Notes: generated by a model from the sequence alone, not told the origin. A DNA stretch of 64,000 nucleotides from Candidatus Micrarchaeota archaeon (GCA_020854825.1 JAHKLY010000002.1:31487-95486), one strand, 5' to 3'; positions 792-61,663 are shown, counted from the first letter of the stretch. Made by a program: numbers and translations.

Positions 792-866
792 ATGCGTTGG
801 AAATGGCTACAAAAAAGAAGACGCAGACTTAAAAAGAGAATGAAGAGAAGAAAAGGAGAGCTTTAA
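792..866 (+). CDS. rpl41e: ribosomal protein eL41 (L41e)-like 24-aa ultra-basic peptide
   Basis: ATG..TAA ORF encoding [24 protein letters not shown]. Its length and composition closely resemble eukaryotic/archaeal L41e ([21 protein letters not shown]...). An AT-rich promoter-like sequence lies upstream. Confidence 0.45.
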
Positions 867-927: not shown

Positions 928-1398
928 ATGGATTATGTTAAAATATTGGCTTCAGCAATTTTTGTAATGTTTGTTAGTTTAATTATATATACTGCAGGTT
1001 CATTTGTGGATATGGAGTATTATACTAATTCAGATAATTTTGGCCTATGGAGCAAAATAATGATGCCAAATATGGGTCCTCCGGGTGTTGAATTTTATTT
1101 TGTTTCGTTAGTATTTAAATTCATAATCGGATTGATATTTACTCTATTTTATATGGTAATTGCGAAATCTATAAGACAAGAATCAATACTCAAAACAGGA
1201 ATTTTCTATGGATGTTTATTATTTGTAATATTAGGGATACCTACTACATTAAACACGTTTTTACTTTTTGCAGTTCCATTGGGATTATTGATAAGTTGGA
1301 CAATACAGGGGCTACTAGTGTTAGTAATTAGCGGAATGGGAGTAGTATATATAATGCGTTATACTTGTAAGTTCAATAATGCAGGAAGTTTAAGATAG
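928..1398 (+). CDS. small integral membrane protein (about 4 TM), 7 nt upstream of hydA
   Basis: ORF with four hydrophobic helices. GGAGG-like RBS (aaaaggaggg) before the ATG. Tightly spaced with the downstream hydrogenase gene. Confidence 0.5.
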   Translation: MDYVKILASAIFVMFVSLIIYTAGSFVDMEYYTNSDNFGLWSKIMMPNMGPPGVEFYFVSLVFKFIIGLIFTLFYMVIAKSIRQESILKTGIFYGCLLFVILGIPTTLNTFLLFAVPLGLLISWTIQGLLVLVISGMGVVYIMRYTCKFNNAGSLR

Positions 1399-1405
1399 GG
1401 ATTTT

Positions 1406-2509
1406 ATGATATCCAAGGATTCAAAGCAAGTATTGGGAATGCTTGAAAATAAAAAAACTATTATGGTGGCGCAAATAGCACCAGCAGTAAGAGTTTCTAT
1501 GGGTGAAGAGTTTGGGTATAATTTAGGAACAGAAATAACTGAAAAATTAATAAGTGCTTTAAAGCAATTAGGTTTTGATTATGTTTTTGATACCTGTTTT
1601 GGTGCAGATGTTGTTACATTGGAAGAAGCATATGAGTTAGATTTAAGAATAAAAAATAATGGGCCTTTCCCTTTAATGACTTCTTGCTGTATTGGTTGGA
1701 GAAATCATGGATTGCAATTTTATCCTCAAAAATTAAAGAAGTTATCCACTTGTATGGCACCGCAAATAACTTTGGGTGCATTGATAAATAGTTATCTTCT
1801 TAAATATTTGAAAGTTAAAGATGATAAAAAAGTGGGAGTAGTTTCAATAATGCCTTGTATATTAAAAAAACAAGAAGCAAAACAAGAAGCTACAATTGGG
1901 TTAGAAGAAGTAAATTTTGTTTTAACAACAAAAGAATGTGCTGATTTATTAAAATATAAAAACATTGATTTGAAAAAATGTGGAAAAACTGATTTTGATA
2001 AATACTTAGGTCATGCAACTCAAGCAGGCAAAAAGTTTGGTGCGACAGGGGGAGTTTTAGAAGCAGTAATAAATACATATGCAGCAATGAAAGGTGATAA
2101 AACAAGAATAACAATTGATGATGATAAACCATTAAATGAATATTCTGTTAACATAGATGGAAAAAAATTGAATATCGCAAAGGTTTGGGGATTGCAGAAT
2201 TTAGATAAAATTATAGAACAAATTAAATGCGAAAAAAAAGAAATACATTTAATTGAAGTAATGGCTTGTCCATTTGGGTGTGTTGGAGGTCCAGGACAAC
2301 CAACTCCCGTAAATAATGAGAAGAATAAAAAACGTGCAAATGCATTAAGAAAATATGCTAAACAAGAAAATATGGAAACTCCATATGATAATAAAGATAT
2401 AAGAAAAATATATAATTTATATTTAGATAAAATAGGAACTGAAAAAACAAAAGAACTTTTACATATGGGTTTTATTCATTCAAAAATTAAAAATAATTTA
2501 AAAAGGTGA
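1406..2509 (+). CDS. hydA: [FeFe]-hydrogenase catalytic H-cluster domain protein (ultraminimal, no ferredoxin-like N-terminal domains)
   Basis: All three H-cluster signature motifs are present: P1 TSCCIGW (TSCCPxW), P2 MPCILKKQE (MPCxxKxxE), P3 EVMACPFGCVGGPGQP (ExMACxxGCxxGGGQP). The 367-aa protein begins directly with the H-domain. Confidence 0.8.
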   Translation: MISKDSKQVLGMLENKKTIMVAQIAPAVRVSMGEEFGYNLGTEITEKLISALKQLGFDYVFDTCFGADVVTLEEAYELDLRIKNNGPFPLMTSCCIGWRNHGLQFYPQKLKKLSTCMAPQITLGALINSYLLKYLKVKDDKKVGVVSIMPCILKKQEAKQEATIGLEEVNFVLTTKECADLLKYKNIDLKKCGKTDFDKYLGHATQAGKKFGATGGVLEAVINTYAAMKGDKTRITIDDDKPLNEYSVNIDGKKLNIAKVWGLQNLDKIIEQIKCEKKEIHLIEVMACPFGCVGGPGQPTPVNNEKNKKRANALRKYAKQENMETPYDNKDIRKIYNLYLDKIGTEKTKELLHMGFIHSKIKNNLKR

Positions 2510-2513
2510 ATCT

Positions 2514-3098
2514 ATAGTACAAGAAATAATTTTAGCAACAGGATCAAAACATAGAATTAAAGCTTTTGAAGAACTTAATCTCTCATTTATTTATGAAAAA
2601 AGTAATGTTGATGAGTATATAGATATAAGACCAAAAAATCCAGAAGAGTTAGTTAAATTTTTAGCAAGATTAAAAACTGAAGCAGTAGCTAAGAATTATT
2701 CTGAAGGTATAGTTATTGGTTTTGATTCTGTAGGTTATTTTGATAATAAAATATTGGAAAAACCAAAATCTAAAGAAGAAGCTTTTTTAAGATTACAAAA
2801 AATGTCTGAGCAGTCTTTTTCATTTTATACTGGAATTCATATAATAGATCTAGTTAAAAATATTTCAAGAACAGAAGTTTCAATTACAAATGCAAAATTA
2901 CGAAAAATAAGTAAGGATGAAATTGATAATTATTTAAATCAAGATCAAGATTATACTACATTCGCGTTAGGTTTTGATCCATTAAATATGTATAGCTGTA
3001 CATTTATTTCATCTATAACTGGAAGTTATAATAATATACTTAAAGGAATACCTTTGGAAAGAATAATAGAACTATTGAATGAGGTTAAGAAAAAATGA
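2514..3098 (+). CDS. maf: Maf-like nucleoside triphosphate pyrophosphatase (start codon uncertain)
   Basis: The frame is open from 2502. It translates ...IILATGSKHRIKAFEELNLSF...GFDSVGYFDNKILEKPKSKEEAF...GIPLERIIELL, which matches the Maf/Ham1 fold signature (ILASxSPRR-like N-terminus). There is no ATG/GTG/TTG before the Maf-homologous N-terminus. The track ORF at 2754 is only the C-terminal part. Confidence 0.55.
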   Translation: MVQEIILATGSKHRIKAFEELNLSFIYEKSNVDEYIDIRPKNPEELVKFLARLKTEAVAKNYSEGIVIGFDSVGYFDNKILEKPKSKEEAFLRLQKMSEQSFSFYTGIHIIDLVKNISRTEVSITNAKLRKISKDEIDNYLNQDQDYTTFALGFDPLNMYSCTFISSITGSYNNILKGIPLERIIELLNEVKKK

Positions 3099-3364
3099 AA
3101 AGAGAATCTGTATTAATTGCATTTATTCTTGCAGGAATAATATTAATTGGTATTTTTATATTTGATAATAATCCTTTAACTAATGACACATTTTGTTTAA
3201 CAGATGATGATTGTCATGTATATAGAATTGATAATTGTTGTACATTTATACCGTTAAATACATTTAATTATCAAACTGTGCATAAGTATGAGATACTTTG
3301 TGATGCAGTTTGCCCAGAATATGAATCAAAATGTGCTTATTTTAGATGTGAATTAATTACCTAA
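3095..3364 (+). CDS. small secreted Cys-rich protein
   Basis: N-terminal hydrophobic signal/TM segment followed by about 9 Cys in 60 aa. Overlaps the maf stop by 4 nt. Confidence 0.4.
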   Translation: MKRESVLIAFILAGIILIGIFIFDNNPLTNDTFCLTDDDCHVYRIDNCCTFIPLNTFNYQTVHKYEILCDAVCPEYESKCAYFRCELIT

Positions 3365-3416: not shown

Positions 3417-3806
3417 ATGAAAAAATATTTTTATGTATTTGGAATTGGGATATTGTTAATACTTATGGGATGTATAGAAAGACAAGAAATTGATTATACA
3501 AATAATTCCACTCTTGTTAATCCTGCATCAAAATTTTGTGTAGATAATGGCGGAAAATTAGATATACGAACAGAAACAGATGGATCTCAGATAGGCTATT
3601 GTATATTTAGAGAAAAAGAATGTGAAGAATGGGAGTTCTATAGAGGAGAATGTAGTCAAGCACATATTTGTACTAATGAAGAGAAACAGAATGAGATATG
3701 TACTATGGAATATATTCCAGTATGTGGAGATGATGGAATAATATATGGAAATAAATGCGCAGCTTGTTCAGCTAAAATTATTTCCTGGATAATAGGAGAA
3801 TGCTAA
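3417..3806 (+). CDS. lipoprotein with DUF333-like domain and C-terminal Kazal-type inhibitor-like domain
   Basis: Lipobox-like LILMGC. NPASKFCVDNGGKLDIR...GYCIF..ECEEWEFYRGEC matches the DUF333 signature. CTMEYIPVCGDDGIIYGNKCAACSA matches the Kazal motif C-x(n)-PVCG-x-DG-x-TY-x-N-x-C. Confidence 0.55.
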   Translation: MKKYFYVFGIGILLILMGCIERQEIDYTNNSTLVNPASKFCVDNGGKLDIRTETDGSQIGYCIFREKECEEWEFYRGECSQAHICTNEEKQNEICTMEYIPVCGDDGIIYGNKCAACSAKIISWIIGEC

Positions 3807-3944: not shown

Positions 3945-6900
3945 TTGTGTATGTCTAATATTATAAAAAATATATTTTTAGTAGCATTTGTTTTAATTGT
4001 ATTTAGTTTTGGCATTGTAAATGCTTGGGTTCCTCAATGTAGTGGAAATACATATGACTTTATTTGTGGAGATATAGTAGATGAAAGCTGTATAATGAAT
4101 GGTAATTTAACTTCTATAGGAACGTGTTTTACAGTATATGCAGACAATATTGTAATAGATTGTGATGGATATACAATCACAGGAAGTCAAACTGGATATG
4201 GAGTTTTAAATGACGGGTATGATAATGTTAGTATAAATGGATGTATAATACATGATTTTACAGTTGGAATACAATTTTATGATTCTACAATTGGATTAAT
4301 TTATAATAATACTGTTTATGATAATAATAATGGAATTACATTAGATAATAGTTCCTTAATTAATGTTTCTGGTAATGATGTATATGGTCATGATTATGGT
4401 ATTTCTTTAATAGATGGATCAAATAATAACACAGTAGCAGATAATAGTGTGAATGGCAATGACTTTGGTATTTATTTAACTATTAGTCCTGGTAATAATC
4501 TAACTAATAATTTTGTATGTAGAAATTCAGAAGTAGATGTATATGATAATGAATTTCCAAATAATAATTGGGCTAGAACTATATATTCCTCATCAGACCC
4601 AAATAATTCAACTTATTTTGCACAAGTAGGGGATTGTTCTTTTGAACAAGGAGTATGTGGACAATTTATAAATGAAGATATAGTATTAACTGAAGATATA
4701 GAATGTACTGAAGAAGGAATAGGAGATTCCGGAATTGTAGTTGAAGCTGATAATATTACAATAGATTGTAATGGATATTCAATAATTGGTTTTATGGGTT
4801 CAGGGATTGGAGTTGAAGTTAGTGGTTATGATGGAATTACAATTATAAATTGCAACGTTTCAAATTTCCTGACCGGAATTTATGTTGAAGATTCTATAGG
4901 TACTGAAGTTTATGACAGTATAATATATTACAATGGTATGTTGGGGCCCGATATGACTGGAATTCATTTCTATAATGTGAATTATTCAGCCATATATAAC
5001 AACTTAGTTCATGAAAATGATATTGGAATTGTTCTTGAAGATTCATACGAAAATGAAGTTTATGAAAATGAAGTGTATGATAATCTATTCCAAGGCATAC
5101 ATCTTGTAAATTCTGAACATAATGTGATTTATGATAATCACATATACTGGAATGCTGACATTGGTTTGTACATTTTAAATTCAACTAACAACTTGTTTGA
5201 AAATAATACAGTTTGCACTAATAGGTTATCTGATATTCTTTTTAGGGGGACAAGCGAAGGAAATGAAGGAGACAATACCTGCAATGTTCTTGATGATACT
5301 GAGGAAGATATGAACATGGAAGTAACTTGTTCAATTACTTGTCCATATTATGGCAATTGCGGTGATGAAATTGACGGAGATATTGTTTTAGCAAGGGATA
5401 TTGAAGATTGCGAAGACGGTTTAATAGTAACCACAGATAACATTGTAATTGACTGTAATGGATATAGAATTTATGGTGATGGAATAAATGGCGGAATAGG
5501 AATTTTAGTTGATAGTTTGGATAATATAACAATAAAGAATTGCACTATCAAATATTTCGGGGTAGGTATTGCTTTGTTTAATTCTAATTCCAGCACACTT
5601 ATGAGCAATTATATGGATTCCAATGGTATGGGTGGAGAAACCGGAATCTATATGTTTAATAGCAATTATACAACAGTTGAAAACAATTTAGTTGAAAATG
5701 ATGACGGCACGGGCATAAACCTGGAATTTGGGTTTTTGAATACTCTTACCAATAACACTTTGTTAAACAATCTTTATGGTATCTATTTAATATCTAGCCA
5801 CAATAATACTTTGACAGATAATACTGCGAATGAAAATGTATTCGGAATTGATTTAGGTAATTCTGCAAACAATACATTATCTGGAAACACTGCAAATAAA
5901 AATATAGTAGTAGGGGTTTATTTAACTGGTACGAGTACTAACAATTACTTAATTGAGAATACTGTAAATCAAAACATAGGTGAAACTTATGGAATATTAT
6001 TATCAGAGGGAGCAGATGAAAATACCTTAATAAACAATACAATAATTGGCAATACTGCGGGTATGAACGTAGGTTCTTTAAATAATACATTAATAGACAA
6101 TTTCGCTTGTGCAAATATTGTTGATATTATTGATTATACTGATGGAAATGATTGGACAAGAACAACTTATACTTTCTCTGATCCAGTGAACACAACATAT
6201 TTTGATCAATTAGCCACTTGTCCATTTATTCAAGGTTTATGCGGACAGACAGTAACTGAAAGTGTAACTTTAACAGAAGACATTGTTTGCGAAGAAGGGG
6301 ATATATTTAGTCCCCGGCCTACTGCATTGGTAATCGGGGCAAATAACCTCACAATTGACTGTGATGGAAACTATTTAATCGGATATGCAGATTATGCAGG
6401 AATTTTATCATCTGGATACAATAATACTGAAATAATAAATTGTGATATTTCAGGATTCTTTTACGGAATCTATTTTGAGGACTCAAACAATTCAATTGTA
6501 GAGGATTCAAATCTTCATGAAAATATGTGTGAGGGAATGTATATCTACTCTTCCAGTGAGGACCCATATCATGCATACGTTTATGATACAGTTTTTGAAG
6601 ATAATTATCAAGAATGTGTACTGACTGGATTGTATTTATCTTCGTCCACATTATTTATGTGGAACAGTGAATTCATAAATAATGGAGAATATGGGTTATA
6701 CGAGGAGTTTAGGGGCATTCCAGATACTGTTTATTGGACCATAGATGATTATGCATATTGCAAGGACAACGGAATTTATATCAGCACAGCAGACGGTTAC
6801 ATAACTTTTGATGAAGGTGTTTTGGAAATAGATAACTGTACAATTGAGATATATAACAGAGAAACAGAAACATGGGCAATATGGTCTATAGAAGGTAACA

Positions 6901-7670
6901 TGACTGATTATATACCAGAAAGAGAAGTTGAAGCAAATGAATCTGAAGAATTTGTGTTTGAAAATTCAGATGCAATAATAACTTTAGAATTAAATGAAAC
7001 AACAAATATTTCATTCTTTGTTGGTTTATTAAATGCAGGTCAATTAGAAGCATTAGGAGATTCTCCAACAGGATTAATTCCATTCAAAGGAATAAATGTA
7101 GAAATTAATGAAAATGAAATAAATGGTACTATAACAATTTGTATTACCTATACTGATGATGAATTAGATGATGCAGGAATAGAAGAAGATACATTAGTTA
7201 TGTATTATTTCAATGAAACATCTGATGAATGGGAAATAATAACTCTCCAAAGGCAAGGGTCAAATAGAGTATGTGCAGAAATACCACATTTCAGTATATA
7301 TGCATTATTTGGTGAAAAAACTGAAGAAGATGGAGGCTCACCTAGAGGAAGCAGTTATACTGGTGGCGGTGCAAGACCAGTAGGACAGAGTCCAATAACA
7401 ACTGAAGAAGAAGAGGAAGAATTACAAATAGATGAAGAAGAATTAGAAGAAGAAATAATAGTACCAGAAAAACCAAGTGAAGAAATACCAGATGAAAAAC
7501 CAATAGATACAACTAAACCATATGTACCTCCAACAATTGAAGAACAACAAGAAGAAAGTGATTTTACAGGTATATATATTGTTGCAGGAATAATTATAAT
7601 TGCAGGAATAATATACTGGTGGATGACAGCAGCAAAAGCAGGTAAAAAAGGATTAATGAGATTTAAATAA
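3945..7670 (+). CDS. large cell-surface protein with parallel beta-helix (NosD/pectate-lyase-like) repeats, acidic linker and C-terminal TM anchor
   Basis: Signal peptide. Repeated I(D/E)CNGY(T/S/R)I(T/I/Y)G and N-x-(I/V)-x-x-N repeat units typical of right-handed beta-helix proteins. Two long internal module duplications (WARTIYSSSDPNNSTYFAQVGDCSFEQGVCGQ / WTRTTYTFSDPVNTTYFDQLATCPFIQGLCGQ). E/P-rich spacer. C-terminal hydrophobic helix plus basic tail (..IIYWWMTAAKAGKKGLMRFK). Confidence 0.7.
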   Translation: MCMSNIIKNIFLVAFVLIVFSFGIVNAWVPQCSGNTYDFICGDIVDESCIMNGNLTSIGTCFTVYADNIVIDCDGYTITGSQTGYGVLNDGYDNVSINGCIIHDFTVGIQFYDSTIGLIYNNTVYDNNNGITLDNSSLINVSGNDVYGHDYGISLIDGSNNNTVADNSVNGNDFGIYLTISPGNNLTNNFVCRNSEVDVYDNEFPNNNWARTIYSSSDPNNSTYFAQVGDCSFEQGVCGQFINEDIVLTEDIECTEEGIGDSGIVVEADNITIDCNGYSIIGFMGSGIGVEVSGYDGITIINCNVSNFLTGIYVEDSIGTEVYDSIIYYNGMLGPDMTGIHFYNVNYSAIYNNLVHENDIGIVLEDSYENEVYENEVYDNLFQGIHLVNSEHNVIYDNHIYWNADIGLYILNSTNNLFENNTVCTNRLSDILFRGTSEGNEGDNTCNVLDDTEEDMNMEVTCSITCPYYGNCGDEIDGDIVLARDIEDCEDGLIVTTDNIVIDCNGYRIYGDGINGGIGILVDSLDNITIKNCTIKYFGVGIALFNSNSSTLMSNYMDSNGMGGETGIYMFNSNYTTVENNLVENDDGTGINLEFGFLNTLTNNTLLNNLYGIYLISSHNNTLTDNTANENVFGIDLGNSANNTLSGNTANKNIVVGVYLTGTSTNNYLIENTVNQNIGETYGILLSEGADENTLINNTIIGNTAGMNVGSLNNTLIDNFACANIVDIIDYTDGNDWTRTTYTFSDPVNTTYFDQLATCPFIQGLCGQTVTESVTLTEDIVCEEGDIFSPRPTALVIGANNLTIDCDGNYLIGYADYAGILSSGYNNTEIINCDISGFFYGIYFEDSNNSIVEDSNLHENMCEGMYIYSSSEDPYHAYVYDTVFEDNYQECVLTGLYLSSSTLFMWNSEFINNGEYGLYEEFRGIPDTVYWTIDDYAYCKDNGIYISTADGYITFDEGVLEIDNCTIEIYNRETETWAIWSIEGNMTDYIPEREVEANESEEFVFENSDAIITLELNETTNISFFVGLLNAGQLEALGDSPTGLIPFKGINVEINENEINGTITICITYTDDELDDAGIEEDTLVMYYFNETSDEWEIITLQRQGSNRVCAEIPHFSIYALFGEKTEEDGGSPRGSSYTGGGARPVGQSPITTEEEEEELQIDEEELEEEIIVPEKPSEEIPDEKPIDTTKPYVPPTIEEQQEESDFTGIYIVAGIIIIAGIIYWWMTAAKAGKKGLMRFK

Positions 7671-9089: not shown

Positions 9090-11235
9090 ACATATAGGAA
9101 GTGGATTCTTTAAACTTTTCTAATCTTTCCTTATATTCTTTTTTTGTGCTTGGTTTTATTATTTCTTTGGCTCTTTCAAAATGCTTTTTAGAAACTTGTT
9201 TTGTTTTAATATTTTCTCTTAATGCTTCCATTCCTGCTTCTCTGCATAAATTTTCCAAATCTGCTCCGCTAAATGAATCAGTTTCAGATGCGATTTCTTT
9301 TAAATCTACATTTTTATCCAAAGGCATTTTTGAAGTATGAACTTTCAATATTTCCAATCTTGTATCTTCTTCTGGCATAGGTATATCTAAAACTCTATCA
9401 AATCTACCTGGCCTTAATAAAGCAGGGTCTAGAATATCTGGCCTATTAGATGCAGCTATAACAACGATATCTTTTATTGAGGATAACCCATCCATTTCTG
9501 TTAATAAAGTATCTACAAGTCTTTCCATAACTCCTGAATCTCCAGAACCTCTTCCTCTTCTTGGTGCAATTGCATCAATTTCATCAATAAATATTACACA
9601 AGGTGAAGCTAATTTTGCTTTTCTAAATATTTCTCTAACCATTTTCTCGCTTTCTCCAACCCATTTAGATAATATTGCAGGGCCTTTTATAGATATAAAA
9701 TTAGATTCACTTTCATTAGCAACAGCTTTAGCTAATAATGTTTTACCAGTTCCAGGTAAACCTACTAAAAGTATTCCTTTAATTGGTCTTATTCCCATTT
9801 TTGAAAATATATCTGGATTTTTTAAAGGTAATTCAATTGCTTCTTTTAACTCTCTTTTTTCTTTTTCTAATCCCCCAATATCTTCCCATTTTACATTTGG
9901 ATGTTCAACAAAAACTTCTCTTAATGCAGAGGGAGTTATTCCTTTAATTGCTTCAAAAAAATCATCTCTTTTAACATTTAAATTTTCTATAATTTCTGGA
10001 GGTATTGTTTCACTTTCTAAATCTATTTGTGGTATTATTCTTCTTAATGCCCTCATTGCAGCTTCTCTTATTAATGAAGATATATCTGCTCCAGTATACC
10101 CATGGGTTATAGATGCTAATTCATCTAAATCAACATCTTTTTCTAAAGGCATTCCTCTTGTGTGTATCATTAAGATTTCTTTTCTATCTTTTCTATCTGG
10201 TACTCCAATTTCTAATTCTCTGTCAAATCTACCAGGTCGCCTTAGTGCAGGATCAATTGAATTTACTCTATTTGTAGCTCCGATAACAATTACTTCTCCT
10301 CTTGCTTTCAAACCATCCATAAGAGATAATAATTGGGAAACCATCCTTTTTTCTACTTCTCCACTAACTTCTTCTCTTTTAGGAGCCAATGAATCTAATT
10401 CATCCATAAATATTATTGAAGGTGCATTTTCTTCAGCTTCCCTAAATACTTCTCTTAATTTTTCTTCTGATTCTCCAACAAATTTGCTTACTAGTTCTGG
10501 TCCTGCAATAGGTATAAAATGTGCTTCACTTTCATTAGCAACAGCTTTAGCTAATAATGTTTTACCAGTTCCAGGTGAGCCATGTAATAAAACTCCTTTT
10601 GGAGGGTCTATTCCTAGTTTTTCAAATAATTCTGGATGTCTTAATGGTAATTCTACCATCTCTCTTATTTTTTGAACCTCCTCTTTTAATCCCCCAACAT
10701 CTTCATATGATATTTGTGAAATTGGAGAAGTAGATATTGGTTCTGATTTTAATGTAACTTCTGTTGAATTATTGATTATAACAATTCCTGTTGGTTGTGA
10801 GTTTGCAACAACTAATGGGAATGAAGTTCCAAAAACTCCTATAAATAAATTATCTTCTCTTGTTACTGCTCTGCCAATTAATCTTTTTTTAACATATTCT
10901 TCAAATCCTGGTGAATATTTTATAGGTTGCAATGGAGCTAATGTTATTTTTTTAGCTTCTTTTGAGTCTGCTTTTTTTAATTTTACTTTATCTCCTATAC
11001 CTGTTTTTGTATTTTGTCTAATATATCCATCCATTCTTATTATTTCTAATCCTTCATCTTGAGGTCGTGCTTGCCAAACAATTGCAGCAGTTGATTTTTT
11101 TCCTTTAATTTCAATGATGTCTCCACTAATTACTCCTAATTGTTCCCTTGTTTTTGAATCTATACGAATTATATTTCTACCCACATCTGCTTGTAGTGCT
11201 TCAGCAACTTTTAATTGTATTTCGTTTTTTTCCAT
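9082..11235 (-). CDS. cdc48: CDC48/VCP-type AAA+ ATPase (two AAA domains)
   Basis: Two Walker A motifs ([16 protein letters not shown]) and two Walker B/SRH regions. N-terminal double-psi-barrel-like region. 717 aa. Confidence 0.9.
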
Positions 11236-54877: not shown

Positions 54878-55858
54878 TTAAATTAATTTTATTAATCCCC
54901 TGCCTATTTCTGCTAAATCCGCACCTAACATCATAGCAAATGAACGTATAAAGGTATAAGTAATAATTAATGCTATTACTGGTGAAATAAATATTCTCAA
55001 TAATATTGCAAAAAAACTACTTTCAAAAAACATTCCAAGTATTGTTTGATAATCAATACTCATTGCCATGTTCTTAATTAAACTTGCAGTTGCTATATTA
55101 TTACCAATACATAATTCTTCTAACATTTTATTATACTCATCTAGATTTTCAATTTCAAATGCTTCTAAGGATTCTGATGTACTACCTGATACAAAAAGAG
55201 TCATTAAAAAAGCAGAGGGAAGCACAATTGCAAAACCTAATCCCATAGCAATAAACATTGCTCCTACACCCCTAGTTGGAGGAAATGCTCTTAATATAAT
55301 ACCCATGGGTAATATTATTACTGCTAGATAATCTCCAAATTTCATTACCTCAACAAAAAAATACATCCACATTACAAATATCCCTAATACGTTTATTATC
55401 CAAGTGAATGTTCCGATAATTGTATTTGGGAGTGAGGCTGCACCAGGAATAAATGTTTTACTTAATAATCCTCCCATATCAGTTCCTATTATTGAAATTT
55501 CTTTACCAAATGCAAAAAAGAAACCTGCACTAAATACATTTCTATATGTTTTTTTAATTGGCCCCAATATTTTATAAACTTCAAAAACTGCGGCATTAAC
55601 AGGGTCTGAACCAAGTACTGGTGCAGTTGAAGTTGTATGTGTTAATTCATTTGAAACTTCTTGGGTTAAATAAAGCATACCTTGAATAAATCCTATAATT
55701 GCTAAAATTATAAATGCAGTTATTAAAATTTCCATATACTCACTTTTACACCATTTTTCTAATCCTTTTAAAGAAAATGCTCTCGCCATCATATAGAATA
55801 TAGTAATTCCCCCCAAGCAAAAAATTGCCAATATTAGAGTTAATATTATCCAATCCAT
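54878..55858 (-). CDS. paralog 6 of tandem polytopic membrane protein family (R-x-F-P-x-T-R motif)
   Basis: LPMGIILRAFPPTRGVGAMFIAMG motif. C-terminal MLGADLAEIGRGLIKLI. Its start overlaps the upstream gene's stop. Confidence 0.6.
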   Translation of the reverse strand: MDWIILTLILAIFCLGGITIFYMMARAFSLKGLEKWCKSEYMEILITAFIILAIIGFIQGMLYLTQEVSNELTHTTSTAPVLGSDPVNAAVFEVYKILGPIKKTYRNVFSAGFFFAFGKEISIIGTDMGGLLSKTFIPGAASLPNTIIGTFTWIINVLGIFVMWMYFFVEVMKFGDYLAVIILPMGIILRAFPPTRGVGAMFIAMGLGFAIVLPSAFLMTLFVSGSTSESLEAFEIENLDEYNKMLEELCIGNNIATASLIKNMAMSIDYQTILGMFFESSFFAILLRIFISPVIALIITYTFIRSFAMMLGADLAEIGRGLIKLI

Positions 55859-56979
55859 TATATCATCCGTGTTAGATTTGATAAATCTATTTGTTCACCA
55901 AAGAACCTTGAAAATTCTCTCATTGATGTTGCCAATATAGCAAAATTTAATAGGGGTAAAAATAAACTACCCAAAATATTAATTGCCAACATTTTCCAAG
56001 TTGCCATAGATAATGCACTAAACATTATTTTCATAGGTTCAATTATACCAATCTTAAAAGTTATTGGTGCACTTGTATGTATATTTCCATCAAACATATC
56101 TGCAGGACTATTAATATGTAGATTAATAAATTGATTTGCTTGCATTTGTTCTGCAACAAATTCAATAATTCCTTCCCACATTCCAAATACTCCAATACCT
56201 TGTAATGCGACACTATTAATAACTAAGAGCATAGGCCAAAATAAACCCAATGCAATTGTTAATCCAATAAGTGTTCCCCCAAACCTTCTTGTAGGTTCAA
56301 AGCATCTTAGTAATATGCCAATAGGCAGGTATATAGTAAACATTCCAGCATATACATAATTAAATAACATAAGTTGGGTTATAGATGTTACAAGCATTGT
56401 TATTATTCCTATTTGTGCTATTTCAAATACTCTATTTAAACTATTTAATCCCTTTCCAGGAGTAATGCCAATACCCAAACCTATAATATCCACTGAAAAT
56501 TTAAAATTTCCAATAGTTTCTCTTTGAATATTAAAGAAAAGTATGCTTGTTAAAGAAATAGTATTCATTCTCATAAGTGTGGTTAAATAATCTTTTGCTT
56601 CTACGACCATTGAGTCATCGCCAGCACCTAGAACATTACCAAAAATCATTTTAGGAGTTAAACCTCCAGAACATAAAATAAATTCTGAAAATCCAACAAT
56701 AACGAGCAATATTAATACAGTTGCACCAACTTGTAGCATTTCATATTTTGCCCATGTTTCACCTTTTTGTATTTGCATCCCCCTACATATAAGAAATATA
56801 ATTAATAGAATTAAAAGAGAAATCATTATTGCTATATAGCAAGTGACAGCCCATGAAGACATAAATGCATTCAAATCTCCCCCACAAACATCATCTGGAA
56901 ATATATCAAATAATGCAGAATGCGACAGATTAAATAGTAGAATTATGCATAGGATAAATAAGGGAATTTTTTTGATCAT
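55858..56979 (-). CDS. paralog 5 of tandem membrane protein family
   Basis: LPIGILLRCFEPTRRFGGTLIGLT. C-terminal FFGEQIDLSNLTRMI. Signal-peptide-like N-terminus. Confidence 0.6.
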   Translation of the reverse strand: MIKKIPLFILCIILLFNLSHSALFDIFPDDVCGGDLNAFMSSWAVTCYIAIMISLLILLIIFLICRGMQIQKGETWAKYEMLQVGATVLILLVIVGFSEFILCSGGLTPKMIFGNVLGAGDDSMVVEAKDYLTTLMRMNTISLTSILFFNIQRETIGNFKFSVDIIGLGIGITPGKGLNSLNRVFEIAQIGIITMLVTSITQLMLFNYVYAGMFTIYLPIGILLRCFEPTRRFGGTLIGLTIALGLFWPMLLVINSVALQGIGVFGMWEGIIEFVAEQMQANQFINLHINSPADMFDGNIHTSAPITFKIGIIEPMKIMFSALSMATWKMLAINILGSLFLPLLNFAILATSMREFSRFFGEQIDLSNLTRMI

Positions 56980-58181
56980 ATTAATTTCACCAATTCTGCT
57001 ACATTCATATCTGAACCTAAGAATTTTCCCATTTCTTGTATAAATGTAAATGTAATGAATATATTTAATGAAGGCAATATAAAACTACCTATCATTACTA
57101 GAAAAATACCTTCTTGGAGCATAATATAAAAGGCGTCCATATATAAATCACTAATTGCTCCAGCAACCATTGGATAAAGAAGCTGCCGATTTTTAAATAT
57201 AGTGGGAGTTCCACTTGTCATAAATTCTTTAAATGATTTATATAATGGATCTATTATGGCATTTGTAATTTCTCTACCTGGCCTATTAAGAGTAGGAGGG
57301 AAAGCATAGAAATGGTCTTGTGCATAATTTATCATTTCATAAGGATATACTCCAATATATGCAGACATTATTAAATTATTGAGATTAAGCATAATTGGAT
57401 AAACAAAATATAGGCCTAGTGCAAGGGCAATTAATCCCCCCCCTACAGAACGAGTAGTTGGAAAACTTCGCAATATTAATCCCAATGGTAAAAATAAAGC
57501 AAGCATTTTATCTGAAGTAAAACATAGAATAAACATATTACCAATCCAGCTTGTTATTGCAGGTAATAAAATAACCAAAGACCAATCAGTTAGTTTAGAC
57601 ACAATGCCAAACATTGAACCAAAATCATAATTAATTCCAATCATATTAAATGGAGTGAAATTAATTTCTATTGAGAATAACCCTTCTAAAAACATATTTA
57701 TAGTTAACATATGGTATCCTAAATGCATTAGTTCTGCAGCCATTGCTTCTGAATAATAATATGCAGTTTGTAATAAAGTGCACCCCGCATTTGGATCGCT
57801 TGGGTCAGAGTATCCACATAAAGTTACATCACAATCACCTACATTTTGACAAGAAGGGTTATTTAATTTTCCAATTTGATCTAAAGGCCCTATCAATGCA
57901 AGCAATAAAACAATAAGTATGAAGGATGCACTAACTTGCCAAATTTCATTTTTTCCCCATGCACTAATATTTGGAAGGTCCACTGCTTTTCCGATTAAAA
58001 ACACACAAACAGCAATCATAAATACAAGAAAAACTCCAGTAATAGATAGTACTAACCAGTTTAATGATGAATCTTGTAGTCCAATTGTTGGGCATGTTTG
58101 AGTCGGTTGTACTAAACTAAATCCTGTGATATTATTAATACAAAGGAAAAACATAATTACTAAAATTAATTTATTATTCAT
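56976..58181 (-). CDS. paralog 4 of tandem membrane protein family
   Basis: LPLGLILRSFPTTRSVGGGLIALA. C-terminal FLGSDMNVAELVKLI. Confidence 0.6.
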   Translation of the reverse strand: MNNKLILVIMFFLCINNITGFSLVQPTQTCPTIGLQDSSLNWLVLSITGVFLVFMIAVCVFLIGKAVDLPNISAWGKNEIWQVSASFILIVLLLALIGPLDQIGKLNNPSCQNVGDCDVTLCGYSDPSDPNAGCTLLQTAYYYSEAMAAELMHLGYHMLTINMFLEGLFSIEINFTPFNMIGINYDFGSMFGIVSKLTDWSLVILLPAITSWIGNMFILCFTSDKMLALFLPLGLILRSFPTTRSVGGGLIALALGLYFVYPIMLNLNNLIMSAYIGVYPYEMINYAQDHFYAFPPTLNRPGREITNAIIDPLYKSFKEFMTSGTPTIFKNRQLLYPMVAGAISDLYMDAFYIMLQEGIFLVMIGSFILPSLNIFITFTFIQEMGKFLGSDMNVAELVKLI

Positions 58182-58189
58182 TTTTTCAC

Positions 58190-59437
58190 CTATAAGAAAT
58201 GTGATAATCCTGCAATTGATGCATCTCCTCCAAAAAATGGAGCCATTGTTTTTATTGAAGCTAAAATAGCGAATAATACAAGTAAAGGTATAATAACAGT
58301 TAGCATAGCAATTTTACCAATCATATGTAAGATACCGTCTATTTCAAGAGCCATATTCTGTCCTTTAAGATGCATAAGAAGATATGCATCAGAAATCGAA
58401 AAAACTCTATTATAATATTCAGTAAATCCTTTACCTATATTTTTAAGCGATTCAAGAGGATGAAGAAAATCAAAATGTGCATTTTCAAAATCAAATTGAG
58501 GTAACAAACTTGCACTTCCTTCAGTCATAAAATCAGCATAAGGCAGTAGTTTTTGTCCAGTCAAAGAGGTCTGTAATCCTATAAAGTTTCCTGATTCAAA
58601 CATTGCCCTATGGCCAATAATATATGGTAATGGAGCAATATAATACAGGCTAAGAGATGTAGCTATTAAAAACCCCCCCAATTTTCTAGTAAATTCAAAA
58701 CTTCTAAATACAAATCCACTAATTAATAAAACTGGAAATAAAACTTGTGCTACTATATCTACTGCATTTTTTTGAATTATATTAATAATTAAAGAATGTG
58801 ATAAAAGTTTGAATGCTTTAGCATACATTCCAAATTCTACTGAATATCCTACTCCCGGCATAATTTTTAGTATTTCTGGAAGCAACAAGAAAGGAGGTTT
58901 AGGCGCAATTACGTATCCTTGTAATAAAAATTTAAAAGATGAAAAAAAGCTTAATTGTTGGTATAATAATAACATTTGTGTCATTGTTTCTGATATCAAC
59001 CATTCTGTTCTATCTAAAAATGATAGTGTTACACATATATGAGGAGCGTAATTTCTGCCTACTACTTCAAATCCTTTTTTTGTATATAAACACTTTCCAT
59101 CTGGATTTAATGCAACACCTGCCTCTTGCATAGTCAAAGTATTGGATAATATTAAATCAATATTTGGAGTTGTATCTATTGAAGAATATGGATCTAATTG
59201 CACAATTCCTTTGGGGATGATTTCGTTATCTATAATTGGTATTGCAACAACGACAATCAAAAAGAAAAAGAATAGATTTAGAATGACTTGCCCATATTCA
59301 GTTTTTGCCTTTGCTCTTAAAGATTCGTCTTGTAATATAAATGAAAATAAATGTATTAGAACATAAATTCCAAGCATAATTAAAGATAGTACAAATGTAA
59401 GCAAAAGCCCCTGTGTTTGTAATTCTATAGGTATCAT
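58190..59437 (-). CDS. paralog 3 of tandem membrane protein family
   Basis: FPVLLISGFVFRSFEFTRKLGGFLIATS. C-terminal FFGGDASIAGLSHFL. Confidence 0.6.
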   Translation of the reverse strand: MIPIELQTQGLLLTFVLSLIMLGIYVLIHLFSFILQDESLRAKAKTEYGQVILNLFFFFLIVVVAIPIIDNEIIPKGIVQLDPYSSIDTTPNIDLILSNTLTMQEAGVALNPDGKCLYTKKGFEVVGRNYAPHICVTLSFLDRTEWLISETMTQMLLLYQQLSFFSSFKFLLQGYVIAPKPPFLLLPEILKIMPGVGYSVEFGMYAKAFKLLSHSLIINIIQKNAVDIVAQVLFPVLLISGFVFRSFEFTRKLGGFLIATSLSLYYIAPLPYIIGHRAMFESGNFIGLQTSLTGQKLLPYADFMTEGSASLLPQFDFENAHFDFLHPLESLKNIGKGFTEYYNRVFSISDAYLLMHLKGQNMALEIDGILHMIGKIAMLTVIIPLLVLFAILASIKTMAPFFGGDASIAGLSHFL

Positions 59438-60390
59438 TAATCAAACCTCTGTATTAAGAATTTTTGAAAACTATTTATAAAAGATACTGTTATTGCCATA
59501 CTTATTGTAGGTAAAAATAATCCCTGCATTAAAACAACTGACAGCATTATAAATCCATTAAATATTTCATATAGTTTTGGCTCTATTACTTGAAATGTTT
59601 TTCCCCAAGCACCTGTAAATGCATCAAATGTTGTGCTATTTGGTATTTCATCAAATATTATTTGAGTTATTGAAATCATGAAGTTATCTTGTATATCTGA
59701 AACAATATTTTCAACTATTGCTGCGTGGATTACATATGAAAATGGAAAAACAATATAAAATCCAATTGCAACTGCGATTAAAAATGAACCTGAATTTCTT
59801 GTAGTTGGAAATATTCTTAAGAAAATTCCGATTGGCAATACAAAAGGAATCATTATTGCTTTTATAATTGATAATGCAAATTGTTGTATTGCTAAACTTG
59901 CATAAAATGGACTCATTAAAGCAAATACTTTATCTAATGCTTTTGTTAAAGTACTTAAATCAAACGGAGGAAAGGTAACGTCTGCTCTTATTGGAATTCC
60001 TATCAAGGCTACTCCAGGTATGTCATTTAATCCTATCTTTATATTTATTTTAGTTAATATATCCATTCCCACCCTCCCATAGAATACAGATTTCATAGTT
60101 CCAAATGTATCAACAAGTAGGTTTTCTAAATATTCTAAAGATATAGTAAATGGGTCATTTCCAATTAATTGAGTGCTTATTTCAAATAATCCTTGTATTC
60201 CAAATATAATAAATAACAAAATAGCAATAGATACCAATATCTGATATAATTCCATTCTTGCAAAAATTTCAAATTCTTTATTATTTAATAATTTAGAAAG
60301 CAAATAAGAAATTGCAGTTAATGCTACCATAATCATTAAAGGTACGATAGAAAGTTGCAATGCAGTTATAAATGCTTGATCAAATGCCAT
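59437..60390 (-). CDS. paralog 2 of tandem membrane protein family
   Basis: LPIGIFLRIFPTTRNSGSFLIAVA. Stop/start overlap with neighbours. Confidence 0.6.
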   Translation of the reverse strand: MAFDQAFITALQLSIVPLMIMVALTAISYLLSKLLNNKEFEIFARMELYQILVSIAILLFIIFGIQGLFEISTQLIGNDPFTISLEYLENLLVDTFGTMKSVFYGRVGMDILTKINIKIGLNDIPGVALIGIPIRADVTFPPFDLSTLTKALDKVFALMSPFYASLAIQQFALSIIKAIMIPFVLPIGIFLRIFPTTRNSGSFLIAVAIGFYIVFPFSYVIHAAIVENIVSDIQDNFMISITQIIFDEIPNSTTFDAFTGAWGKTFQVIEPKLYEIFNGFIMLSVVLMQGLFLPTISMAITVSFINSFQKFLIQRFD

Positions 60391-60391
60391 A

Positions 60392-61663
60392 TTATCCCAA
60401 CTTTAATTTTTCAATTCCAAATATTTTTGTTTCTCCTCCTAAAATTCCAGAGATATTTGCAAATAAGGTTAAACAAATAATAACATCCATAAAAAAACAA
60501 ATAGCAATAAAAATAAACTTCTGTAAAACTTGATTTGCTAAAGCGGCTGTGTAATGAATTGGTTCAGCTGCAAATTCACTTAAATTAATGCCTAATGCAG
60601 CACCAGCAAGTGCAGTTGTTAATTTGGATAATTTACTTAAGGTTCCAAATAATAAATTGTTTATTGTATTGCTAATTACTTCTCCTGCTCTTATCACAGA
60701 TCTTCCAATATATGCAAAAAAGTTTTTTATTTTATCACCTAAATTTGAATTCCAATTAGTTTCTTCGTTTATATCATTTATATTATCTGTTAATGAACCA
60801 AATTCATCAATTAATATATCTCCCCCTTCAGGATAATGTTCATCCATTTTTTCCTGCATTTTTGTTTCATCTTCAAGTTTTTGTTCTAATCTTTCTTCTA
60901 ATAATGCAACAGAAATTGGATCCTCATTATCATATGATAAACCACCTAAGAACATATTGACATATATATATTGATTAAATAAAATAGTCATTGGAAAAAT
61001 GAAATAAAAAGTAATTGCTAATGCAATTAATGTAGAACCTAATCTTCTTGTTATGGGTAATGCGCGTAATATTATCCCCAATGGGAAAAATATTGTGAAT
61101 GAAGTTATTTTAATAAAATCCAATATGGAATCCATTACAGATACTAAAAAGTTTGTCATAATAACAGTTTTAGTTATATCTCCAATCATATCTGCAACTA
61201 TATTCAATCCTGCTAATGGTTGCATGCTTACACTCACTACAAAACCAACAAGACCCCCCATAGGTATGGGAACTCCAAATGTTATTCCATATTTAGAATA
61301 ACCAGATAAAATTGCACTAGTTCGTACTCCTCTTTCCGCAATATTTTGTAGATTTAAATCCAGTACTTTTAGAAACACTTTTCCTTGTGTAAAATATACG
61401 GGATCGTTTATATCTAAAGGTCCTGAATAACCTATTAATGCATAACATACTAATAATACCACATAATGAAGTAAAAACATCCCAAGAAAAACTATTAATA
61501 CAGAATAAATCAATTCTTTAAATTCTTTTTGTGCCCAGCCTTTTAATTGAGGAAATCCTCCCAAAGTAGATATTAAATATGCAAATAAAGCACCGCCTAG
61601 ACTTATCATTAATCCTATAAATACTAGTACATATGCTTGTGAACTAAATACCATATAATTCAT
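60392..61663 (-). CDS. paralog 1 (first gene) of tandem membrane protein family, with acidic insertion
   Basis: FPLGIILRALPITRRLGSTLIALA motif. E/D-rich insertion (EERLEQKLEDETKMQEKMDEH). C-terminal FGIEKLKLG. Confidence 0.6.
   Translation of the reverse strand: MNYMVFSSQAYVLVFIGLMISLGGALFAYLISTLGGFPQLKGWAQKEFKELIYSVLIVFLGMFLLHYVVLLVCYALIGYSGPLDINDPVYFTQGKVFLKVLDLNLQNIAERGVRTSAILSGYSKYGITFGVPIPMGGLVGFVVSVSMQPLAGLNIVADMIGDITKTVIMTNFLVSVMDSILDFIKITSFTIFFPLGIILRALPITRRLGSTLIALAITFYFIFPMTILFNQYIYVNMFLGGLSYDNEDPISVALLEERLEQKLEDETKMQEKMDEHYPEGGDILIDEFGSLTDNINDINEETNWNSNLGDKIKNFFAYIGRSVIRAGEVISNTINNLLFGTLSKLSKLTTALAGAALGINLSEFAAEPIHYTAALANQVLQKFIFIAICFFMDVIICLTLFANISGILGGETKIFGIEKLKLG

What the first reader, a model, noticed from the sequence alone, without database searches (positions are those of the whole stretch)
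1406..2509. Ultraminimal [FeFe]-hydrogenase H-cluster protein in an archaeon
The 367-aa protein begins directly with the H-cluster domain and carries all three cluster-ligating signatures (TSCCIGW, MPCILKKQE, EVMACPFGCVGGPGQP). It lacks any ferredoxin-like F-cluster domain and is far smaller than bacterial HydA. No hydE/hydF/hydG maturase genes are present within this window. [FeFe]-hydrogenases are unusual in archaea. A catalytically competent minimal enzyme would give this organism fermentative H2 production or uptake.
Basis: partly seen in the sequence, partly recalled or inferred. Interest (0 to 1): 0.7.

Follow-up and report, generated by a model that had tools for sequence, protein, structure and literature searches.

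The report
Minimal archaeal [FeFe]-hydrogenase, already described
The gene is a real, intact, very small iron-iron hydrogenase in a Micrarchaeota (DPANN) archaeon, but this enzyme class was surveyed and shown to make hydrogen in a 2024 Cell paper, so it is a confirmed yet already known kind of enzyme.

Summary
ORF 1406-2509 (+) encodes a 367-aa protein that is only an [FeFe]-hydrogenase H-domain plus a small-subunit-like C-terminal tail. All four H-cluster cysteines are conserved, as are the proton-relay Cys, the full CpI-type proton pathway, and the residues that in CpI contact the cluster's CO, CN and dithiolate groups. An AF2 model (pLDDT 92.6) overlays the CpI H-domain (TM 0.90). The window is archaeal and holds no HydE/F/G, ferredoxin, HydB or HydC.

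It is not new. The exact protein is NCBI MCC7552377.1 (Candidatus Micrarchaeota archaeon). Greening et al. (Cell 2024, PMC11216029) described the class as "minimal group A1" archaeal hydrogenases, mean length 363 aa. They showed H2 production by a Micrarchaeota enzyme after artificial maturation, and reported that most such genomes lack HydEFG. They reserve "ultraminimal" for the ~286-aa group E.

Small additions from this work:
- The protein sits in a monophyletic DPANN clade marked by SCCIGW (CpI Pro301 to Ile) and GGPGQP.
- The gene is under purifying selection (dN/dS 0.09-0.16).
- Its locus lacks the 6-TM gene that flanks hydA in many relatives, and instead carries a lineage-restricted 156-aa membrane ORF 7 nt upstream.

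How the cofactor is matured remains the published open question.

The parts
1406..2509 (+). hydA: a 367-aa minimal [FeFe]-hydrogenase made of an H-domain plus a small-subunit-like tail.
   Evidence: - ORF listed.
- Pfam Fe_hyd_lg_C and Fe_hyd_SSU.
- PDB best hits are HydA of the T. kivui HydABC complex (E 1.2e-70) and CpI (E 1.7e-64).
- AF2 model with pLDDT 92.6, TM 0.90 to CpI.
- 100% identical to NCBI MCC7552377.1.
1679..1699 (+). Motif L1, TSCCIGW. C94 aligns with CpI C299 (proton relay) and C95 with C300 ([4Fe-4S]H ligand). Ile96 replaces the usual Pro301.
   Evidence: - Translation.
- Mapping to CpI.
- Ile is invariant in 39/39 members of the archaeal clade and absent from 27/27 full-length homologues.
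1850..1876 (+). Motif L2, MPCILKKQE. M149 aligns with CpI M353, C151 with C355 (cluster ligand) and K154 with K358.
2255..2302 (+). Motif L3, EVMACPFGCVGGPGQP. M286 aligns with CpI M497, C288 with C499 (cluster ligand) and C292 with C503 (the Cys that bridges to the [2Fe] subsite).
1625..1747 (+). The stretch holding the proton-transfer pathway residues. E74, E77, R81 and S114 align with CpI E279, E282, R286 and S319.
   Evidence: All four are identical to CpI. Within the wider clade R286 is kept in only 9/39 members.
2318..2470 (+). C-terminal helical tail homologous to the [FeFe]-hydrogenase small subunit (residues 305-355).
   Evidence: - Pfam Fe_hyd_SSU, E 1.2e-9.
- Helices at residues 304-318, 330-340 and 346-352 in the AF2 model.
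- Aligns with CpI residues ~515-573.
928..1398 (+). Lineage-restricted 156-aa membrane ORF with four to five TM helices. Its stop lies 7 nt before the hydA start, and a GGAGG-type ribosome-binding site sits at 915-921. It is a candidate operon partner of unknown function.
   Evidence: - ORF and sequence.
- TM helices.
- Only 4 protein clusters among 5.8 billion.
- Found upstream of hydA in all four species-level relatives: window, L007, L066 and L064.
- dN/dS 0.16-0.29.
- Not a member of the 6-TM family that flanks hydA elsewhere.

Best explanation
This is the catalytic, and probably the only, subunit of a minimal group A [FeFe]-hydrogenase in a genome-reduced anaerobic Micrarchaeota archaeon.

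**Shown from sequence and model.**
- The protein is a complete H-domain. Four cysteines (C95, C151, C288, C292) can hold the [4Fe-4S]-[2Fe] H-cluster.
- C94 and the chain E74/S114/E77/R81 provide the CpI-type proton relay.
- K154, M149, M286 and P119/Q120 align with the CpI residues that surround the cluster's CN, CO and dithiolate groups.
- The accessory FeS (F-cluster) domains are missing, so the [4Fe-4S] part of the H-cluster must be reduced directly by a soluble carrier.

**Inferred.**
- In vivo the enzyme most likely re-oxidises reduced ferredoxin made during fermentation and releases H2. This is the role proposed for all archaeal group A1 enzymes, and it is how algal HydA1 works.
- How the [2Fe] subsite is made without HydE/F/G is unknown.
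- The co-oriented upstream membrane ORF may tether or assist the enzyme, but nothing shown here supports a specific role.
For: - **Domains and motifs:**
- **Residue-by-residue identity with CpI at every ligand and pathway position:**
- **Conservation.** These positions are invariant across 39 clade members.
- **Fold.** AF2 pLDDT 92.6 and pTM 0.92. Foldseek TMq 0.89-0.91 and rmsd about 2.0 Å to CpI, CbA5H and T. kivui HydA.
- **Native and selected.** GC is 28.8% against 28.1% for the window, dN/dS is 0.09-0.16, and synteny is kept in four relatives and on 11 independent contigs.
- **Anaerobe context.** NrdD, NrdG and NrdR are present.
- **No partner subunits.** No HydB, HydC or ferredoxin in 64 kb.
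[quoted passage not shown] Ferredoxin-coupled fermentative H2 production is proposed for the class (PMC11216029).
Against: - No activity data exist for this protein or, as far as I could establish, for its SCCIGW sub-lineage.
- No maturase, ferredoxin or 2-oxoacid:ferredoxin oxidoreductase lies in the window, so neither cofactor supply nor electron donor is shown.
- The rest of the genome could not be searched.
- The Pro301-to-Ile and Ser357-to-Leu replacements next to two cluster ligands are untested and could alter activity or bias.
- The direction of catalysis in vivo (evolution or uptake) cannot be read from sequence.
Confidence: 0.8

Rival explanations
1. The protein never receives a [2Fe] subsite, because the organism lacks HydEFG. 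It then serves as a plain [4Fe-4S] protein or scaffold, like eukaryotic Nar1/Narf, and not as a hydrogenase.
For: - No HydE, HydF or HydG in 64 kb.
- 125 of 130 hydrogenase-encoding archaeal genomes lack a full maturase set (PMC11216029).
Against: - Residues needed only for the [2Fe] subsite and proton delivery are invariant in 39/39 clade members. These are C94 (C299), C292 (C503), K154 (K358), M149 (M353) and M286 (M497).
- The gene is under purifying selection.
- Relatives from maturase-free archaea bind the synthetic cofactor and make H2.
- There is no Nar1-type N-terminal Cys motif.
Confidence: 0.08
2. It works mainly as an uptake hydrogenase. It would oxidise H2 supplied by hosts or neighbours in order to reduce ferredoxin.
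For: [FeFe] H-domains are intrinsically bidirectional. A group E archaeal enzyme showed both currents in protein-film voltammetry.
Against: - That enzyme was biased toward proton reduction.
- DPANN carriers are predicted to be obligate fermenters without respiratory reductases or carbon fixation that would consume the electrons (PMC11216029).
- The window holds no electron sink.
Confidence: 0.08
3. It is one part of a membrane-associated two-gene module with the upstream 156-aa membrane protein. That protein would anchor HydA, or act in cofactor acquisition as a stand-in for the 6-TM gene found next to hydA in other lineages.
For: - The intergenic gap is 7 nt and the genes share a strand.
- Adjacency is kept in four of four species-level relatives, and the ORF is under purifying selection.
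- A different 5-6-TM family flanks hydA in at least 22 other loci.
Against: - The ORF is confined to one narrow lineage: 4 clusters in 5.8 billion proteins.
- It shows no homology to the 6-TM family (hhalign probability 0.1%).
- In L064 a HAD hydrolase gene sits between it and hydA.
- Its AF2 model is of low confidence (pLDDT 65.6).
- HydA has no predicted membrane-binding segment.
Confidence: 0.04

Closest known systems
Archaeal minimal group A1 [FeFe] hydrogenases (Greening et al., Cell 2024; for example 'Mu' from Micrarchaeota UBA95 sp002499405 and 'Ia' from Ca. Iainarchaeum andersonii)
   Same: - DPANN (Micrarchaeota) host.
- Monomeric, H-domain-only architecture; 367 aa against a class mean of 363 aa.
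- All H-cluster cysteines present.
- No F-clusters and no HydEFG nearby.
- Predicted ferredoxin-coupled fermentative role.
   Different: - I could not compare directly with the Mu and Ia sequences, because the paper's supplements are not held.
- The Mu gene cluster, as drawn in the paper, carries hyd6TM and a HydC gene. This window has neither.
- This protein keeps the whole CpI proton pathway. The paper notes differing proton-transfer residues among archaeal enzymes, and R286 is kept in only 9/39 members of this clade.
Chlamydomonas reinhardtii HydA1 (M1-type algal [FeFe] hydrogenase; PDB 3lx4, 6gm5)
   Same: - H-domain only, with no accessory FeS clusters.
- Direct reduction by ferredoxin.
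- Homologous at E about 2.5e-53.
   Different: - CrHydA1 is longer. The paper cites 457 residues, and the match is split into two stretches.
- From my own knowledge, it keeps TSCCPGW.
- From my own knowledge, it is matured by HydEF/HydG encoded in the same genome.
- It is eukaryotic.
H-domain of bacterial group A enzymes: T. kivui HydA of HydABC (8a6t), HDCR HydA2 (7qv7) and C. pasteurianum CpI (4xdc)
   Same: - About 37-40% identity across the whole 350-residue H-domain and C-terminal tail.
- Identical ligands and proton pathway.
- TM 0.89-0.91.
   Different: - Those enzymes carry 95-220 N-terminal residues with two to four extra FeS clusters, and some sit in multisubunit complexes.
- Here the protein starts about 14 residues before the H-domain core.
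- The scores against NCBIfam group A and group A6 models fall below the curated cut-offs, because the N-terminal model positions are unmatched.
Ultraminimal group E archaeal [FeFe] hydrogenases (for example 'Fm' from Ca. Forterrea multitransposorum)
   Same: DPANN host, single [4Fe-4S] plus [2Fe] cluster, no maturases.
   Different: - Group E enzymes average 286 aa with condensed loops and are sister to sensory group C.
- This protein is 367 aa, has the small-subunit-like tail, and scores best against group A models.

Membership tests
[FeFe]-hydrogenase catalytic H-domain (prototypical group A) | Pfam Fe_hyd_lg_C above its gathering score. | tested here: met
   251.8 bits against a cut-off of 22.1, residues 19-296, covering model positions 2-245 of 245.
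[FeFe]-hydrogenase catalytic H-domain (prototypical group A) | Three H-cluster motifs holding the four ligating cysteines: L1 TSCCPxW, L2 MPCxxKxxE and L3 ExMxCxxGCxxGxGQP. | tested here: met
   TSCCIGW, MPCILKKQE and EVMACPFGCVGGPGQP are present. C95, C151, C288 and C292 align with CpI C300, C355, C499 and C503. The only deviation in the L1 consensus is Pro to Ile.
[FeFe]-hydrogenase catalytic H-domain (prototypical group A) | Proton-transfer pathway C299-E279-S319-E282-R286, plus K358, M353 and M497 in the second sphere. | tested here: met
   All are identical in the alignment to CpI.
[FeFe]-hydrogenase catalytic H-domain (prototypical group A) | H-domain fold. | tested here: met
   AF2 pLDDT 92.6. 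Foldseek TMq 0.90 and rmsd 2.0 Å over 360 columns to CpI.
[FeFe]-hydrogenase catalytic H-domain (prototypical group A) | Curated NCBIfam cut-off for group A (TIGR02512) or group A6 (NF040763). | tested here: not met
   Scores are 293.5 bits against 405.95, and 348.3 against 765. Only the C-terminal model positions match (73-374 of 375, and 209-568 of 571), because the N-terminal FeS domains are absent. This reflects the architecture, not a loss of catalytic residues.
[FeFe]-hydrogenase catalytic H-domain (prototypical group A) | Binds the H-cluster and turns over H2. | not testable with these tools
   Needs expression, maturation, FTIR and an activity assay. Precedent exists only for relatives (PMC11216029).
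Archaeal minimal group A1 (Greening et al. 2024) | HydA-only enzyme of about 360 aa with no accessory FeS domain, in Micrarchaeota, Iainarchaeota or Nanoarchaeota. | tested here: met
   367 aa, no cysteine in residues 1-63, host named Candidatus Micrarchaeota archaeon.
Archaeal minimal group A1 (Greening et al. 2024) | No HydB or HydC partner that would make it a group A3 bifurcating enzyme. | tested here: met
   No Complex1_51K, NuoE or 2Fe-2S thioredoxin-like ORF in 64 kb. In contrast, full-length CPR relatives have a Nuo51-type gene upstream.
Archaeal minimal group A1 (Greening et al. 2024) | Falls in the same phylogenetic radiation as the published archaeal A1 sequences. | tested here: inconclusive
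   It lies in a clade of 39 Micrarchaeota and Iainarchaeota minimal enzymes with 100% bootstrap support (NJ tree).
Ultraminimal group E [FeFe] hydrogenase | About 286 aa with condensed loops, sister to group C. | tested here: not met
   367 aa, small-subunit-like tail present, best profile and structure matches are to group A.
Nar1/Narf-like non-catalytic homologues | Loss of the residues specific to the [2Fe] subsite, plus an N-terminal ferredoxin-like Cys motif. | tested here: not met
   C94, C292, K154, M149 and M286 are retained and invariant in the clade. There is no N-terminal Cys motif.

The most novel reading that the evidence does not exclude
The H-cluster of this enzyme is assembled or acquired by a route that does not use HydEFG. 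Small membrane proteins kept next to hydA would take part in that route, for example by importing a cofactor precursor from a host, or by docking HydA at the membrane. Here the candidate is the lineage-specific 156-aa ORF. In many other DPANN and CPR genomes it is a 5-6-TM family with a faint resemblance to ECF-transporter S-components.
Probability: 0.08. Interest if true: 0.8.

Novelty: already known. Interest (0 to 1): 0.22.

Why it matters
It confirms that this Micrarchaeota genome has the genetic capacity for hydrogen metabolism through the smallest group A hydrogenase architecture. The class matters for DPANN physiology and as a compact H2 catalyst. That significance was already established by Greening et al. 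2024.

What stays open, and is not made more testable by this window, is how archaea without HydEFG build the [2Fe] subsite.

The clade-wide Pro301-to-Ile and Ser357-to-Leu changes sit beside two cluster ligands. Together with the recurrent membrane-protein neighbours, they are modest new leads for enzyme engineers and for the maturation question.

Tried and rejected
1. **Is ORF 928-1398 the paper's "hyd6TM"?** I built a profile from 22 hydA-adjacent 5-6-TM proteins. blastp (best E 0.66), hmmsearch (E 0.37) and hhalign (probability 0.1%) were all negative. No family member was found in six-frame ORFs of the whole window (best E 0.14). Rejected.
2. **AF2 model of the membrane ORF.** The alignment had four sequences and the model reached only pLDDT 65.6, too low for a fold search. 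Abandoned.
3. **Supplementary tables of the Cell paper.** I wanted them to compare with Mu and Ia and to see whether this MAG was included. They are not held.
4. **GTDB species-representative scan.** It did not return the window's own genome; the best hit was 53% identical. I therefore could not retrieve the rest of the genome to look for HydEFG, ferredoxin or POR.
5. **Ferredoxin-motif scan.** Among ORFs of 35 aa or more, only zinc-ribbon proteins turned up.
6. **tRNA and Rfam scans of the window.** Nothing found.
7. **Neighbours of hydA in divergent archaeal loci.** They were checked for a conserved redox partner. They are housekeeping genes (EF-1-alpha with S10, and LemA with an M48 protease), not oxidoreductases.
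8. **Narf/Nar1 and group E readings.** Both rejected on residues, length and profile scores.

Full report
**Observation.**
The ORF at 1406-2509 (+) exists as described and encodes 367 aa. An in-frame TAA lies four codons upstream of the ATG, so the protein cannot have a longer N-terminus. The three quoted motifs translate exactly at nt 1679-1699 (TSCCIGW), 1850-1876 (MPCILKKQE) and 2255-2302 (EVMACPFGCVGGPGQP).

Pfam finds the [FeFe]-hydrogenase large-subunit C-terminal (H-cluster) domain over residues 19-296 (E 1e-74). It also finds the small-subunit domain over residues 305-355 (E 1.2e-9). NCBIfam's best models are group A6 and group A, matched only over their C-terminal halves. The scores therefore fall below the curated cut-offs. 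That is what a protein lacking the N-terminal FeS domains should give.

**Organism and surroundings.**
The window is archaeal. It encodes:
- Orc1/Cdc6, PolD DP1 and DP2, and ThrRS with the archaea-specific editing domain;
- proteasome alpha and beta subunits, and exosome Rrp41, Rrp42 and Rrp4;
- SBDS, PCNA, aIF2-beta, FttA, Bud32 and RIO kinases.

GC content is about 28%. An NrdR, NrdD and NrdG cluster points to an anaerobe.

The protein is 100% identical to NCBI MCC7552377.1. That entry is labelled, misleadingly, [quoted passage not shown]. It was seen on 11 independent contigs from ENA, JGI and Logan assemblies with the same neighbours.

hydA has the GC content of its genome (28.8% against 28.1%). 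It sits in conserved synteny with archaeal housekeeping genes in three further species-level relatives (84-87% identical). dN/dS is 0.09-0.16. It is therefore a native, selected gene and not a binning artefact.

**Catalytic competence on paper.**
I used the HMMER alignment to CpI chains in the PDB for numbering and mapped the residues with a script.

| Role | This protein | CpI |
|---|---|---|
| [4Fe-4S]H ligands | C95, C151, C288 | C300, C355, C499 |
| Cys bridging to the [2Fe] subsite | C292 | C503 |
| Proton relay | C94 | C299 |
| Rest of the proton pathway | E74, E77, R81, S114 | E279, E282, R286, S319 |
| Second sphere | K154, M149, M286, P119/Q120, F211 | K358, M353, M497, P324/Q325, F417 |

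The residue roles attached to the CpI positions come from my knowledge of the CpI literature.

An AlphaFold2 model built on a 34-sequence alignment has pLDDT 92.6 and pTM 0.92. It superposes on CpI, CbA5H and T. kivui HydA with TMq 0.89-0.91 and rmsd about 2 Å over about 360 columns.

**What is missing.**
- No cysteine occurs in the first 63 residues.
- No ferredoxin-type motif occurs in any ORF of the window.
- No HydB or HydC was found.
- No HydE, HydF or HydG was found. The single radical-SAM ORF is NrdG2, above its curated cut-off.

**Comparison with what is known.**
Greening et al. (Cell 2024, PMC11216029) searched 2,339 archaeal species clusters and found [FeFe] hydrogenases in 130 genomes of nine phyla. 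They defined "archaeal group A1" enzymes in Iainarchaeota, Micrarchaeota and Nanoarchaeota, averaging 363 residues, and "ultraminimal" group E enzymes averaging 286 residues.

They expressed a Micrarchaeota A1 enzyme ("Mu"), matured it with synthetic [2Fe]adt, and measured H2 evolution at half the CrHydA1 rate in lysates. They reported that only five of the 130 genomes carry a full HydEFG set and proposed an alternative maturation route. They proposed that these monomeric enzymes re-oxidise ferredoxin during fermentation.

The label "ultraminimal" belongs to group E, not to this protein.

**What this analysis adds.**
- **Clade.** A scan of GTDB species representatives with clade-specific patterns returned 51 loci. 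In a neighbour-joining tree, 39 Micrarchaeota and Iainarchaeota minimal enzymes (347-432 aa by first-ATG calls) form a clade with 100% bootstrap support. The window's protein lies in an eight-member subclade, also at 100%.
- **Signature residues.** The clade is marked by Ile at CpI position 301 (39/39), Leu at 357 (32/39) and Pro at 507 (38/39). None of these occurs in 27 full-length homologues. Ile301 and Leu357 also occur in a separate clade of 11 minimal enzymes from Bacilli MAGs. Whether that reflects shared ancestry or convergence after loss of the F-domain is unresolved.
- **Proton pathway.** The window's subclade keeps Arg286. Most of the clade does not (9/39).

**Gene neighbourhood.**
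At least 22 relatives, DPANN and CPR alike, have a conserved 165-225-aa protein with five or six TM helices directly beside hydA. This is probably the "hyd6TM" mentioned but not characterised in the paper. One member has a faint, sub-threshold, full-length match to ECF-transporter S-components (E 0.0056).

The window has no member of that family. Instead a 156-aa ORF with four to five TM helices ends 7 nt before hydA. It is confined to this narrow lineage (4 clusters in 5.8 billion proteins). It is found upstream of hydA in all four relatives; in one of them a HAD hydrolase gene lies in between. It is under purifying selection. Its function is unknown, and its AF2 model is too uncertain to use.

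**Mechanism and confidence.**
I am about 90% confident that this is a bona fide H-cluster-binding catalytic subunit. That it works in vivo as a ferredoxin-oxidising, H2-evolving fermentative valve is an inference from the architecture and from the published class. I put that at about 65%. Neither the electron donor nor the maturation route can be seen in this window.

**Verdict.**
This is a correct observation and a correct reading of an enzyme class that is already known and partly characterised. Interest is low. The residual value lies in the clade signature next to the cluster ligands, and in the recurrent membrane-protein neighbours as leads for the open maturation problem.

Noticed in passing
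L010:7453-7950 (-), L011:11892-12461 (-), L013, L016-L019, L022, L027, L028, L030, L038, L039, L045, L047, L048, L052, L054, L056, L058-L060 (coordinates): A conserved protein family of 165-225 aa with five or six TM helices lies directly beside hydA in at least 22 DPANN and CPR loci. Its motif is LPS-GA..NG-LFGP.T-FL.Y..PFIW.GN. One member gives a faint, full-length, sub-threshold hit to ECF-transporter S-components (PF12822, E 0.0056). It is probably the uncharacterised 'hyd6TM' of Greening et al. 2024. It is absent from this window.
   Followed up: partly
L032, L035, L037, L040, L042, L043, L046, L049, L050, L055, L057, L061 (hydA at about 10001-11100 in each): Bacilli/Firmicutes MAGs encode H-domain-only HydA, most 374-382 aa. 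These share the archaeal SCCIGW (Ile301) and Leu357 signature, but have Val in place of Met353. In the NJ tree they form a separate clade. In L032 the gene is followed by an Mrp/NUBPL-type iron-transfer P-loop ATPase gene and a CBS-domain gene.
   Followed up: partly
window 2514-3098 (+): The Maf-like gene downstream of hydA is called as 114 aa from a TTG at 2754. The same frame is open from 2502, and residues encoded from 2514 match the full-length Maf model (positions 3-184 of 185). No ATG, GTG or TTG occurs before 2754. Either a non-canonical start is used (ATA at 2514?) or the gene is damaged at its 5' end. The closest relative, L007, lacks this gene altogether.
   Followed up: partly
window 792-866 (+): An uncalled 24-codon ORF encodes [24 protein letters not shown]. 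From memory it looks like ribosomal protein eL41. A public gene call at this spot (32 aa, another frame) is probably wrong.
   Followed up: no
window 54878-61663 (-): Six consecutive, tightly packed ORFs of 317-423 aa, each with four to seven predicted TM helices. They are mutually paralogous (blastp E 1e-4 to 1e-12). None of the six has a Pfam match, and the two scanned against NCBIfam have none either.
   Followed up: partly
window 3095-3364 (+), 3417-3806 (+), 3945-7670 (+): Downstream of hydA lies a run of predicted secreted or surface proteins. The first is an 89-aa Cys-rich protein with a signal anchor; in L007 its ortholog sits immediately after hydA. The second is a protein with DUF333 and Kazal-inhibitor domains. 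The third is a 1241-aa protein of beta-helix/NosD repeats with a hydrophobic C-terminal anchor.
   Followed up: no
L064:835-1515 and L063:5448-6128: In one species-level relative a HAD-family hydrolase gene is inserted between the 156-aa membrane ORF and hydA. The reading frames overlap at their ends, which suggests a three-gene operon.
   Followed up: no
P0050, P0076 and PDB 7q4v_A: Eleven of 27 full-length group A homologues read TSCSPGW. That puts Ser at the column aligned with the CpI cluster ligand C300. I did not examine whether this is an alignment-register effect or a real ligand difference.
   Followed up: no
window 1406-2509; NCBI MCC7552377.1: The public annotation 'iron hydrogenase small subunit' is misleading. 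The protein is the catalytic large-subunit H-domain with a fused small-subunit-like tail.
   Followed up: yes
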